From Candidatus Omnitrophota bacterium (lineage in GTDB: Bacteria > Omnitrophota > Gorgyraeia > Gygaellales > Profunditerraquicolaceae), in NCBI GenBank assembly GCA_041651035.1, contig JBAZKC010000001.1, positions 195,244 through 259,243 on the forward strand: DNA of 64,000 bases. The letters are read 5' to 3'. A program made the translations under genes and the position numbers. The notes below the pieces were generated by a model that saw only the letters and a program-made list of their open reading frames with translations, did not search any database and was not told where the DNA came from. Below, one piece after another: positions 1,800-59,551 of the stretch (positions within the stretch are counted from its first letter, which is position 1; the number at the start of each line of letters is the position of its first letter).

Positions 1800-1943
1800 T
1801 TAATACCGTAGTCCTTTGGATGTTTTAGTGGTGGTGCCGTACTCACTGTTTTGTACTTGCGCTCGGGGTGGCGCTTGTCGCGCTGTTTACCATATTGCTC
1901 CGGCTCATACAGCTTACGTTCCGTAAGCTGTGGGCTCATTAAG

Positions 1944-2330
1944 TGGAGGTGGGCGGAATTGAACCGCCGTCCTTAAGTAATCCGATAAAAACCGCTACAT
2001 GCTTAGACTGTCATTTATGCTTTGGCTTACCACTCCGACAGACAAGATTGAATAAGCTGCAACCCTAATTGTCTTGCCATCCATCCTAGGGCAAAATGGA
2101 CAGCCAGCTCATTAGTGCTCTATTCTATCCTATGAGCAAGGACAGATAGAGGCTTCGGACTTAATTAAGCCCGAAGGCTGGAATGAACGCCGGCCTTACG
2201 GCCATTGTTCCCGCTAAACGGTTGTTTACGCTTGCGTTTATATTGTGCACGGATTATTAACGCGGCTAACCATGCGTCCGCGGCATGCTGTTCTTATCCG
2301 ACTAACCTAAGTCGAACCCATTTCACCCCC
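1944..2330 (-). ncRNA. ssrA: tmRNA (SsrA), CCA not encoded
   Basis: minus-strand 5' GGGGGUGAAAUGGGUUCGACUUAGG and 3' GGACGGCGGUUCAAUUCCGCCCACCUCCA-A match tmRNA tRNA-like domain; acceptor 5' GGGGGUG pairs 3' CACCUCC; adjacent to smpB. Confidence 0.8.
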
Positions 2331-58377: not shown

Positions 58378-58430
58378 AGTTTTCTAAATTACCACGGTTG
58401 CAAGGTTCTTTCAAGGAATATTAAATAAAA

Positions 58431-58454
58431 GGCCCGCCAGAAATCCTGGCGGGC
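58431..58454. terminator. hairpin GGCCCGCCAG-aaat-CCTGGCGGGC with U-run on minus strand, downstream of tRNA-Met exon 2
   Basis: 10-bp stem; A-run upstream on plus strand. Confidence 0.55.
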
Positions 58455-58500
58455 TTTATGTTGCGGGGGCAAGATTTGAACTTGCGACCTCAAGGTTATG

Positions 58501-59139
58501 CTTACTACTACAGCTTTCGCTGCTTTGCCACAAAACTTGGCAAATTCGTAGTCTGGACTATATCTTTGTCCTTAATCTTTAGGACTTCTGCCGTATAGTC
58601 TCTACACCTTCCCGCCATAAATTCCTGGCGGACTTGGCTCGGTATTACCTTGAATTACTTCGAGGGTTCCACCGAATTTGACAGACTATCCTTCAGCCGT
58701 CTCCGGCCGAGGAGCCCATCGGACAACAAATCCCATCGCTCTCTATACTTCGCTGATTTAGGTTTACGCTGTCTCTTGTCTGTCTCTACAAATGTTACTG
58801 TACTTTCGTAGTTGGAGAAAACAGATAGAGGCATCACGTAAAATACGCGTAAATCAGCGAGGTAAGTTATCGCGAAATCAAAATCATCCGCATTGTAACG
58901 CATCCTTAACATGCGCCGGCGATTAGTCTTAGTTCTACGGGCATCAACAACATAACATCTTGCCTTTGCATCAAACCAAGCACTCTTCACCTGAATGCGA
59001 ATAAGCCTGCCATGAAGATCGATTGCTAAATCATATGCAAGTCGATCTCCGACAGGCCGTAACACCCTGAAGCCTCTTTTTAAAAGTTCAGTTGTTACTG
59101 CTGATTCCGCAATATCGGCTTTGAGCTTTGTGTCCATTG
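58501..59139 (-). other. group I self-splicing intron (639 nt) in anticodon loop, ribozyme core in 3' third
   Basis: 5' exon ends with U, intron ends with G (omega-G at 58501); conserved core elements AGAGACUA (R, 58576-58583 rc) and AAGAUAUAGUCC (S, 58555-58566 rc), P/Q-like AAUUUAUGGCGGGAA / GUCCGCCAGG. Confidence 0.8.
58655..59137 (-). CDS. intron-encoded PD-(D/E)XK-fold endonuclease (putative homing endonuclease, I-Ssp6803I-like), start AUG at intron nt 3-5
   Basis: 160 aa MDTKLKADIAESAVTTELLKRGFRVLRPVGDRLAYDLAIDLHGRLIRIQVK = E...D...(E/Q)xK nuclease motif; the listed ORF start (59185) reads through tRNA exon 1 and is spurious. Confidence 0.65.
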   Translation of the reverse strand: MDTKLKADIAESAVTTELLKRGFRVLRPVGDRLAYDLAIDLHGRLIRIQVKSAWFDAKARCYVVDARRTKTNRRRMLRMRYNADDFDFAITYLADLRVFYVMPLSVFSNYESTVTFVETDKRQRKPKSAKYRERWDLLSDGLLGRRRLKDSLSNSVEPSK

Positions 59140-59269
59140 AGCCTTGCGAGCTACCAGGCTGCTCCACCCCGCTATTGTCGTTCATTATAGTTTATTCGCT
59201 GCCTTCAACTAACAAAGAACATTTATTCCCCTGACGCATAATTATACTAGAATTTGGCGTTGTTACAAA

Positions 59270-59551
59270 TTATCTTTTTCTCTCAGGAACTATTCTAATG
59301 GGGATCTCGCCCTTGCGCACTATACCCATCTTTTCCCTGGCGATCTTTTCTTGATACACCGGGTCATTTTCCACGAGGATAAGTTCCTGCTGTAAAAGAG
59401 CGTTTTCTATATTTAATCTTTTGATATTACCTATTAAGTCGCGGTTCTTATCTCTTAATTCCTGTAACTTTGTGTAACCCGGCAAGAATACCACCAGGAC
59501 GAAAACCGCGATACCAAAGATCCAGAATGCTTTTCTTAATACCGGCAACAT
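59270..59551 (-). CDS. ftsB: septum formation initiator family protein (FtsB/DivIC-like)
   Basis: 93 aa, N-terminal TM + coiled coil. Confidence 0.6.
   Translation of the reverse strand: MLPVLRKAFWIFGIAVFVLVVFLPGYTKLQELRDKNRDLIGNIKRLNIENALLQQELILVENDPVYQEKIAREKMGIVRKGEIPIRIVPERKR

What the first reader, a model, noticed from the sequence alone, without database searches (positions are those of the whole stretch)
58461..59270. Initiator tRNA-Met gene split by a group I intron that carries a PD-(D/E)XK homing-endonuclease ORF
What first looked like an orphan 3' tRNA fragment (58461-58500) next to a small nuclease gene is exon 2 of a tRNA-Met(CAU). Exon 1 lies 639 nt away at 59140-59173. Joining the exons gives AGCGGGGUGGAGCAGCCUGGUAGCUCGCAAGGCU|CAUAACCUUGAGGUCGCAAGUUCAAAUCUUGCCCCCGCAA. 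This has the fMet-type D arm, AGGUC variable loop, UUCAAAU T loop, acceptor CCCCCGCAAC and an unpaired 1:72 position. The intervening sequence follows group I rules: exon 1 ends in U33, the intron ends in G, and the 3' third has the conserved core strings AGAGACUA and AAGAUAUAGUCC plus a P4-like pairing. A 160-aa ORF begins at intron nucleotides 3-5 and has an E..D..QVK restriction-fold motif. Intron-containing tRNA-fMet genes with a PD-(D/E)XK homing endonuclease (I-Ssp6803I) are known essentially from cyanobacteria. This host, with McsAB/ClpC and an LPS envelope, does not look cyanobacterial, so lateral spread of this mobile intron or a new host range is possible. A candidate promoter (TTGTAA-16-TATAAT, minus strand, about 59241-59268) sits upstream.
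Basis: partly seen in the sequence, partly recalled or inferred. Interest (0 to 1): 0.85.

Follow-up and report, generated by a model that had tools for sequence, protein, structure and literature searches.

The report
Mobile intron splitting initiator tRNA gene
The initiator methionine tRNA gene of this uncultured Omnitrophota bacterium is interrupted by a self-splicing group I intron carrying its own DNA-cutting "homing" enzyme; this element was characterised in cyanobacteria, and it turns out to be common in Omnitrophota and present in several other phyla.

Summary
The finding is correct in almost every detail. On the minus strand, 59173-59140 and 58500-58461 are the two halves of a tRNA-Met(CAU) with initiator features. 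They are separated by a 639-nt intron (59139-58501) inserted between U33 and C34. Rfam's group I intron model scores above its curated threshold. A P2-P9 structure drawn on the window holds in 60 related introns: 92.5% of cells are paired and 45 of 63 pairs show compensatory changes. The 160-aa ORF starts at intron nucleotide 3. It is a clear I-Ssp6803I homologue (PDB 2OST E 1e-46; Pfam PDDEXK_5 E 6e-44) and is under purifying selection (dN/dS about 0.04-0.12). Intronless tRNA genes identical to the predicted ligated exons sit at the same eno-ftsB-tRNA locus in related Omnitrophota, so the splice junction is right and the intron is a presence/absence polymorphism. The host is Candidatus Omnitrophota. 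This is not a one-off lateral transfer: relatives of the endonuclease occur in 443 species genomes across several phyla, and NCBI already names the protein "group I intron-associated PD-(D/E)XK endonuclease". In the papers I could search, endonuclease-bearing tRNA-fMet introns are reported only from cyanobacteria. Verdict: a real, well-formed new member of a known kind, of moderate interest. Splicing and cleavage are inferred, not shown.

The parts
59140..59173 (-). tRNA-fMet exon 1 (positions 1-33: acceptor 5' strand, D arm, anticodon-stem 5' strand, C32, U33)
   Evidence: ARAGORN with introns allowed. It is identical to the 5' half of intronless tRNA genes in syntenic Omnitrophota contigs L094 and L164.
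58501..59139 (-). Group I intron, 639 nt, inserted between U33 and C34; its last base G58501 is the terminal guanosine
   Evidence: Rfam RF00028 scores 58.4 bits against a threshold of 50. The same insertion site is seen in 66 of 66 parsed relatives.
58655..59137 (-). Homing-endonuclease ORF of 160 aa, in the P1 loop. The ATG is intron nucleotides 3-5 and the stop UAA lies in the GUAA loop of P5.
   Evidence: PDB 2OST (I-Ssp6803I) E 1e-46 and 54% identity in alignment A1. Pfam PF11645 E 6e-44. dN/dS is 0.04-0.12.
58713..58719 (-). Internal guide sequence AUGGGCU. GGCU pairs with exon G30-U33 to form P1, with a U33-G wobble at the splice site. UG pairs with intron C+1 A+2. AUG can pair with exon-2 C34-A35-U36 to form a 3-bp P10.
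   Evidence: Read from the sequence. GGGC is nearly invariant in 60 introns. The pairings themselves are inferred.
58501..58712 (-). Ribozyme core. P2 58710-58704/58699-58693; P3 58685-58680/58592-58587; P4 58675-58670/58644-58639; P5 58665-58659/58654-58648; P6a 58632-58626/58617-58611; P7 58600-58595/58561-58556; P8 58585-58581/58572-58568; P9.0 58552-58548/58508-58504; P9a 58544-58538/58530-58524; P9b 58523-58510.
   Evidence: 92.5% of cells are paired against 29-42% for slid controls, and 45 of 63 pairs have changes on both sides. RNAalifold recovers the same helices on its own. The MFE z-score is -5.5.
58461..58500 (-). tRNA-fMet exon 2 (C34 to A73). C74 is at 58460 and CCA is not fully encoded.
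58422..58454 (-). Intrinsic terminator: 10-bp stem with 8 G:C pairs, followed by CTTTTATTTA
59241..59268 (-). Candidate sigma-70-type promoter TTGTAA-16-TATAAT, about 60 nt upstream of the tRNA 5' end
   Evidence: 10 of 12 consensus matches, which is weak on its own. A second TATAAT at 59189-59184 lies 10 nt upstream of the tRNA but has no good -35 element.

Best explanation
This is the native initiator tRNA gene of an Omnitrophota bacterium, at the conserved eno-ftsB-tRNA locus, interrupted in its anticodon loop by a compact IC3-like group I intron that carries a homing-endonuclease gene in its P1 loop. How it most likely works follows; all steps are inferred from family knowledge unless marked as shown. 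The gene is transcribed as one precursor ending at the terminator at 58454-58432. The guide sequence AUGGGCU pairs with the end of exon 1, placing a U33-G wobble at the 5' splice site. Free guanosine bound at P7 attacks that site. The terminal G58501 then enters the G site. Exon 2 aligns through a short P10 (CAU with AUG). The exons are ligated to give a 74-nt tRNA-fMet that RNase P, 3' trimming and CCA addition complete. It is shown here that exactly this ligated sequence exists as an uninterrupted gene in relatives. The 160-aa protein is translated from the precursor or the excised intron. By homology with I-Ssp6803I it should bind as a tetramer to the pseudo-palindromic DNA encoding the anticodon stem-loop of an intronless tRNA-fMet allele and cut it. 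Repair from an intron-bearing copy would then copy the intron and endonuclease gene in (homing). The intron-bearing allele is immune because the insertion splits the target. The start codon lies 2 nt from the splice site inside P1, and the last 21 codons plus the stop read through the guide sequence, P2, P3, J3/4, P4 and half of P5. Translation and ribozyme folding should therefore compete, which probably keeps endonuclease expression low.
For: Group I identity: the Rfam hit is above the gathering score, the helices covary in 60 homologues, and the MFE z-score is -5.5. tRNA identity and junction. L094 and L164 carry an uninterrupted tRNA 100% identical to the joined exons, at the same eno-ftsB locus with enolase 81-83% identical. 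Initiator features: CAU anticodon, A1xA72 mismatch and A11:U24. Position 1:72 is never Watson-Crick in 66 relatives. Endonuclease: 2OST E 1e-46, PF11645, D36/Q49/K51 invariant including in I-Ssp6803I, and dN/dS 0.04-0.12 against 16 Omnitrophota homologues. Same architecture as the prototype: a 95%-identical I-Ssp6803I relative (L201) has the ORF in the P1 loop, with its 3' end overlapping the guide sequence and P2, a homologous ribozyme (nhmmer E 1e-46) and the same junction with exon 2. Mobility: at least 120 metagenome contigs carry the exact intronless 30-nt junction, and 13 of them are syntenic Omnitrophota loci (enolase 70-85% identical). These are interleaved in divergence with intron-bearing relatives (enolase 58-83%).
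Against: No RNA or biochemical data exist for this organism, so splicing, translation and cleavage are all inferred. P10 is only 3 bp and is not conserved in all relatives. The putative ribosome-binding signal is weak: AAGG lies 4 nt before the AUG, inside the anticodon stem and P1. The target site differs from the Synechocystis one at six positions (27-29 and 41-43), so the specificity must have shifted, and this is untested. Synonymous divergence is near saturation, so the dN/dS values are rough. Whether this is the only tRNA-fMet gene in the genome could not be checked, because only 64 kb were available.
Confidence: 0.88

Rival explanations
1. The intron still splices, but the endonuclease is no longer an active homing enzyme. 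It could be decaying in the late phase of the homing cycle, or retained for another role such as helping splicing. The element would then be inherited only vertically.
For: Only two of the 269 bacterial tRNA introns in a 2025 survey were endonuclease-bearing tRNA-fMet introns, and its authors infer little current mobility (bioRxiv 10.1101/2025.07.03.662931). The ORF has an awkward start inside P1 and a tail running through the ribozyme core.
Against: The ORF is intact, the catalytic-signature residues are invariant and dN/dS is about 0.1. The intron is patchily present among close relatives at one locus, as expected for ongoing gain and loss. No maturase activity is known for this family (from my own knowledge).
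Confidence: 0.08
2. Recent lateral transfer from a cyanobacterium into this one lineage.
For: The prototype and most published members are cyanobacterial (PMC3384342; PMC1995217; preprint).
Against: The protein is only 54% identical to I-Ssp6803I but 73-88% identical to over a hundred Omnitrophota clusters. The best cyanobacterial-side hits cluster separately. The locus and its flanks are conserved within the phylum.
Confidence: 0.02
3. A dead, split tRNA pseudogene, with a functional tRNA-fMet encoded elsewhere.
For: The rest of the genome was not available. Standard tRNA finders report no tRNA here.
Against: Both exons are 100% identical to intact genes in relatives. Ribozyme helices are kept by compensatory changes. 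A promoter-like site and a strong terminator flank the unit. In the survey, about 90% of intron-containing tRNA genes had no intronless twin.
Confidence: 0.02

Closest known systems
Synechocystis sp. PCC 6803 tRNA-fMet group I intron encoding I-Ssp6803I (655-nt intron, 150-aa ORF; PDB 2OST)
   Same: Same host gene and same insertion site (33/34). The ribozyme is homologous (nhmmer E 1e-46 to the near-identical L201). The endonuclease family is the same (54% identity). The ORF is placed the same way, in the P1 loop with its 3' end overlapping the guide sequence and P2. Size is similar, 639 against 655 nt.
   Different: The host phylum is Omnitrophota, not Cyanobacteriota. The start codon is at intron nucleotide 3 rather than about 21. 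The ORF runs on to the P5 loop, adding about 20 residues of ribozyme-encoded tail. The target differs at anticodon-stem pairs 27:43, 28:42 and 29:41 (CAAGG/CCUUG against UCGGG/CCCGA).
Azoarcus tRNA-Ile and cyanobacterial tRNA-Leu(UAA) IC3 group I introns
   Same: A compact intron of about 200 nt in the anticodon loop of a bacterial tRNA, with a very short P1. The core strings GUCAAAUUCGG, CCGAGCCAAG and GGUGUAGAGACUA are shared.
   Different: Those introns sit at other sites (34/35 for tRNA-Leu) in other tRNAs and carry no ORF. The IC3 assignment made here is by resemblance, not by a formal classifier.
Free-standing endonuclease next to an ORF-less intron ('collaborative homing': phage psbA F-CphI, T3 gene 5.3 / I-TslI; reviewed in PMC3984707)
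   Same: In 14 of the 80 related genome loci, and in Scytonema millei, the same endonuclease family sits free-standing just downstream of a tRNA-fMet that carries an ORF-less intron at the same site.
   Different: The window itself has the intron-embedded form. The free-standing form is in bacterial chromosomes rather than phages, and its target is untested.

Membership tests
Group I intron (Rfam RF00028) | Covariance-model match at or above the curated gathering score | tested here: met
   58.4 bits against 50, E 3e-12, model positions 1-253.
Group I intron (Rfam RF00028) | Conserved P3-P9 core, including the P3/P7 pseudoknot, supported by covariation | tested here: met
   63 pairs in 11 helices, 92.5% of cells paired, 45 pairs with changes on both sides, 0 of 500 shuffles as high. 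RNAalifold agrees for the helices that are not pseudoknotted. P7 is almost invariant, so covariation says little about it.
Group I intron (Rfam RF00028) | U at the end of the 5' exon paired to G of an internal guide (P1), and G as the last intron base | tested here: met
   U33 precedes the splice site in 66 of 66 loci, and the intron ends in G in 66 of 66. The guide GGGC is nearly invariant. The pairing itself is inferred.
Group I intron (Rfam RF00028) | Guanosine-dependent self-splicing | not testable with these tools
   This needs an in vitro transcript with GTP and Mg2+. The indirect support is that the predicted ligation product equals intact genes in relatives.
I-Ssp6803I / PDDEXK_5 homing endonucleases (PF11645) | Sequence membership in the family | tested here: met
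   PF11645 scores 149.9 bits against a cut-off of 26.1. 2OST_A E 1e-46 over residues 2-139.
I-Ssp6803I / PDDEXK_5 homing endonucleases (PF11645) | PD-(D/E)XK-type catalytic signature retained | tested here: met
   D36, Q49 and K51 are invariant in 14 sequences including I-Ssp6803I. Their assignment as catalytic residues rests on my recollection of the structure paper, which was not held.
I-Ssp6803I / PDDEXK_5 homing endonucleases (PF11645) | [quoted passage not shown] | tested here: inconclusive
   The intron location is met. Cleavage is not testable here. Intronless target alleles do exist in relatives.
Bacterial initiator tRNA (tRNA-fMet) | CAU anticodon, non-Watson-Crick 1:72, and A11:U24 | tested here: met
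   A1xA72, A11:U24 and CAU in the ARAGORN cloverleaf. Position 1:72 is mismatched in all 66 relatives.
Bacterial initiator tRNA (tRNA-fMet) | Three consecutive G:C pairs 29-31:39-41 in the anticodon stem | tested here: not met
   The stem is A29:U41, G30:C40, G31:C39. The same variant is in 44 of 66 related intron-bearing genes, and 22 of 66 have the canonical three. I still file it as the initiator. It is orthologous by locus, intron site and all other features to the canonical copies. AU/GC/GC initiators are known from other bacteria, but that is from memory and was not checked here.

The most novel reading that the evidence does not exclude
The tRNA-fMet / I-Ssp6803I system is a widespread, currently active mobile element across at least six bacterial phyla. 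In it the same endonuclease lineage has moved repeatedly between a free-standing position just downstream of an ORF-less-intron tRNA-fMet and a position inside the intron's P1 loop. That would give a natural chromosomal series for testing how mobile group I introns are assembled: a pre-adapted free-standing endonuclease invades an intron. It would do so in an essential, usually single-copy gene.
Probability: 0.4. Interest if true: 0.6.

Novelty: new member of a known kind. Interest (0 to 1): 0.35.

Why it matters
The papers I could search describe endonuclease-bearing tRNA-fMet introns only from cyanobacteria. A 2025 survey of 4,934 complete genomes found just two, both cyanobacterial. This window, with the 443 related species genomes, shows the element is common in the uncultured phylum Omnitrophota and present in several other phyla, and that intron-plus and intron-minus alleles coexist among close relatives. 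There is a practical point for annotators. Default tRNA finders miss the gene, so such genomes appear to lack an initiator tRNA, and gene callers extend the endonuclease ORF through tRNA exon 1. There is also a point for evolution research. The family offers many natural variants of a small tetrameric endonuclease whose target, the anticodon stem-loop, covaries with it. It also offers both free-standing and intron-embedded forms for studying how mobile introns arise.

Tried and rejected

ARAGORN labelled many relatives 'tRNA-Leu(caa)', 'Ser', 'Pro' or 'Thr' with the intron at 38 or 39. I rejected these calls. They arise because the intron begins with CAA, CGA or UGG. The group I rules (U before the site, G at the end) and the intronless alleles fix the junction at U33|C34.

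NCBIfam gave no hit for the protein, although NCBI names it. The exact 176-aa deposited protein was not found by the look-up of encoding contigs.

Three key papers were not held: Zhao 2007 (PMC1864971), Paquin 1997 (PMC179611) and Zhao 2009 (PMC3008403). The I-Ssp6803I target sequence and catalytic-residue assignments therefore rest on reviews and memory.

My regular expressions parsed 66 of the 81 loci (the 80 genome loci plus the window). A profile HMM was used to classify the rest.

The proximal TATAAT at 59189-59184 was considered as the promoter, but it has no acceptable -35 element.

RNAalifold paired the guide GGGC with the 3' strand of P7. I rejected this as an artefact, because exon 1 is absent from that alignment and the program cannot draw the P3/P7 pseudoknot.

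I did not run a structure prediction, because 54% identity to a solved structure made it unnecessary.

Full report
**Observation**

- ARAGORN with default settings and Rfam's tRNA model report no tRNA here.
- When introns are allowed, ARAGORN calls a tRNA-Met(CAU) spanning 59173-58460 with a 639-nt intron. The joined exons (59173-59140 plus 58500-58461) fold into a normal cloverleaf.
- Rfam's group I intron model matches 58738-58528 at 58.4 bits, above its gathering score of 50, over the full length of the model.
- The ORF from the ATG at 59137 to the TAA at 58657-58655 encodes 160 aa.

**The tRNA**

The gene has the bacterial initiator hallmarks of a CAU anticodon, a mismatched 1:72 pair (A x A) and A11:U24.
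- It lacks one hallmark. The anticodon stem reads A29:U41, G30:C40, G31:C39, so there are two rather than three consecutive G:C pairs.
- This is a lineage trait, not damage. Of 66 related intron-bearing genes, 44 have A:U at 29:41 and 22 have G:C, and none has a Watson-Crick 1:72 pair.
- The strongest support for the proposed exon junction comes from relatives.
- Thirteen of those contigs have the window's gene order, with enolase 70-85% identical, an FtsB-like gene, and in some the 891-aa downstream protein.
- Two of them (L094, L164) carry a tRNA gene identical over all 74 nt to the window's joined exons.

**The ribozyme**

I drew P2-P9 on the window sequence and counted pairs over an alignment of 60 homologous introns from other genomes.
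- 92.5% of cells form standard pairs, against 29-42% when partners are slid by 1-3 columns.
- 45 of 63 pairs show changes on both sides, and no shuffle out of 500 reached any observed measure.
- RNAalifold recovers P2, P3, P4, P6, P6a, P8, P9.0, P9a and P9b without being given the structure.
- The window sequence alone folds with a z-score of -5.5.
- The guide sequence AUGGGCU (58719-58713) can pair with G30-U33 of exon 1, placing U33 opposite G. It can alternatively pair with C34-A35-U36 of exon 2 as a 3-bp P10. These pairings are inferred.
- The intron ends in G in all 66 parsed relatives, and U33 precedes the site in all of them.
- The core resembles the compact IC3 tRNA introns. That is a resemblance, not a formal subgroup assignment.

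**The protein**

- It matches the solved I-Ssp6803I structure 2OST at E 1e-46 over residues 2-139, and Pfam PDDEXK_5 at E 6e-44. It is 54% identical to I-Ssp6803I in alignment A1.
- D36, Q49 and K51 are invariant in an alignment that includes I-Ssp6803I.
- Against 16 Omnitrophota homologues, dN/dS is 0.04-0.12. Synonymous sites are near saturation, so these values are rough.
- The deposited gene call is 176 aa because it starts upstream of the tRNA and reads through exon 1. All homologues and I-Ssp6803I begin at the MDTKLK/STKLK position, so the 160-aa start is right.
- The last 21 codons and the stop are ribozyme sequence: the guide, P2, P3, J3/4, P4 and the 5' strand of P5, with the stop in the GUAA loop of P5.
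- Many homologues stop earlier, at about 145 aa. The tail is therefore unlikely to matter for the protein.

**Comparison with the prototype**

A contig encoding a 95%-identical relative of I-Ssp6803I (L201) shows the same layout.
- The ORF sits in the P1 loop, although its start is about 21 nt into the intron rather than at nucleotide 3.
- The 3' end of the ORF overlaps the guide and P2.
- The ribozyme is homologous (nhmmer E 1e-46) and the junction with exon 2 is the same.
- The published intron is 655 nt with a 150-aa ORF (PMC1995217).
- The window element is therefore the same kind of element, not a variant architecture.

**Host and distribution**

- The exact protein is deposited as Candidatus Omnitrophota, and the 120 best hits (73-88% identity) that carry names are Omnitrophica/Omnitrophota.
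- Across one genome per species, 443 genomes encode a relative. The best 80 are mostly Omnitrophota.
- The best 80 also include Bacteroidota (among them cultured Arcicella species), Patescibacteria, Margulisiibacteriota, Melainabacteria and 'Deltaproteobacteria' MAGs.
- Hits nearest I-Ssp6803I are mostly cyanobacterial, but include Hymenobacter and a Planctomycetes MAG. NCBI names the family 'group I intron-associated PD-(D/E)XK endonuclease'.
- At 50% clustering the family has 201 representatives at E 1e-10 or better.
- The eno-ftsB-tRNA gene order holds in 49 of the 80 loci.
- Intron-bearing relatives (enolase 58-83% identical to the window) and intronless relatives (70-85%) overlap in divergence. 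The intron has therefore been gained or lost repeatedly among close relatives.
- This fits a long residence and spread within the phylum, not a recent jump from cyanobacteria.

**Literature**

- Reviews describe I-Ssp6803I and its close homologues as cyanobacterial (PMC3384342; PMC3943268).
- A 2025 preprint surveyed 4,934 complete genomes and found 269 tRNA group I introns in 14 phyla. It treats 33/34 in tRNA-fMet as a well-known site.
- That preprint found only two endonuclease-bearing tRNA-fMet introns, both cyanobacterial. It also notes that about 90% of intron-containing tRNA genes have no intronless twin (10.1101/2025.07.03.662931).
- I found no paper that links group I introns to Omnitrophota. 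The library does not hold most papers of subscription journals.

**Mechanism and confidence**

- The best-supported account is a self-splicing, homing-competent intron in the native initiator tRNA gene.
- Shown here: the sequence family memberships, the covarying structure, the correctness of the junction, the presence/absence polymorphism, and selection on the protein.
- Inferred: splicing chemistry, translation of the ORF, tetrameric binding and cleavage of the anticodon stem-loop DNA, and competition between translation and folding.
- The promoter assignment is weak and the terminator is strong.

**Verdict**

The finding is real and correctly interpreted. It is a new member of a known kind, extending the published host range, but that extension is already implicit in database annotation. 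Interest is moderate (0.35). The more interesting lead lies outside the window: the same endonuclease family occurs free-standing just downstream of tRNA-fMet genes that carry an ORF-less intron.

Noticed in passing
L048, L051, L052, L061, L064, L065, L068, L070, L072, L074, L075, L077, L078, L080 (HEG at about 1501-1914; tRNA with intron ending about 60-260 nt upstream); L203 (Scytonema millei) 1087-2028: A second architecture. The tRNA-fMet carries an ORF-less 202-325-nt group I intron at the same 33/34 site. A terminator follows, and then a free-standing gene of the same endonuclease family. By nearest-neighbour identity, the free-standing and intronic endonucleases are interleaved, which suggests repeated switches. 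This resembles the phage 'collaborative homing' arrangements.
   Followed up: partly
window 59145-59141 and 58493-58489 (anticodon stem); trna set from L001-L080: The initiator tRNA has A29:U41 instead of the near-universal third G:C pair. 44 of 66 related intron-bearing tRNA-fMet genes share this and 22 of 66 have G:C. The endonuclease target (the anticodon stem-loop DNA) therefore varies within the family.
   Followed up: partly
window 59138-59185 (-): The deposited gene call (P0001, 176 aa) starts at an ATG upstream of the tRNA and reads through exon 1. Default tRNA finders miss the split tRNA. Such genomes would therefore appear to lack an initiator tRNA and to have an over-long 'endonuclease'.
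   Followed up: yes
window 58655-58719 (-): The ORF's last 21 codons and its stop are encoded by ribozyme core sequence, and its stop UAA sits in the GUAA loop of P5. Many homologues stop earlier, at about 145 aa, shortly after the conserved ...RERWDLLSDG... segment (the exact stop position was not mapped). The C-terminal tail therefore appears to depend on reading frame rather than on function.
   Followed up: partly
window 1941-2330 (-): A tmRNA (Rfam 173 bits) with a long 24-residue tag, ASVNNRLAGTMAVRPAFIPAFGLN. It does not end in the usual ...LAA.
   Followed up: no
L011 67-376 and 1501-1923; L048 about 1330-1420: L011 has an ORF-less-intron tRNA-fMet. About 1.1 kb downstream it has an endonuclease copy preceded by the intron's 5' start (CAATGGACACAAA), but with no exon 1 and no ribozyme. 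That copy lies next to an HNH-like ORF. L048 has a duplicated tRNA 3' fragment between the tRNA and the free-standing endonuclease gene. These may be scars of rearrangement.
   Followed up: no
L056 2227-2302; L076 877-953 (complement): In two Patescibacteria/Saccharibacteria loci, a second uninterrupted tRNA-Met(CAU)-type gene lies next to the intron-bearing one. I did not determine whether it is an elongator, tRNA-Ile2 or a second initiator.
   Followed up: no
window 58684-58689 (-): A second copy of AUAGUC lies just 5' of P3 (GGAUAGUCUGUC). It could pair with the 5' strand of P7 as an alternative to the true P7 3' strand at 58561-58556. It may be a folding trap or switch, or it may be chance.
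   Followed up: no
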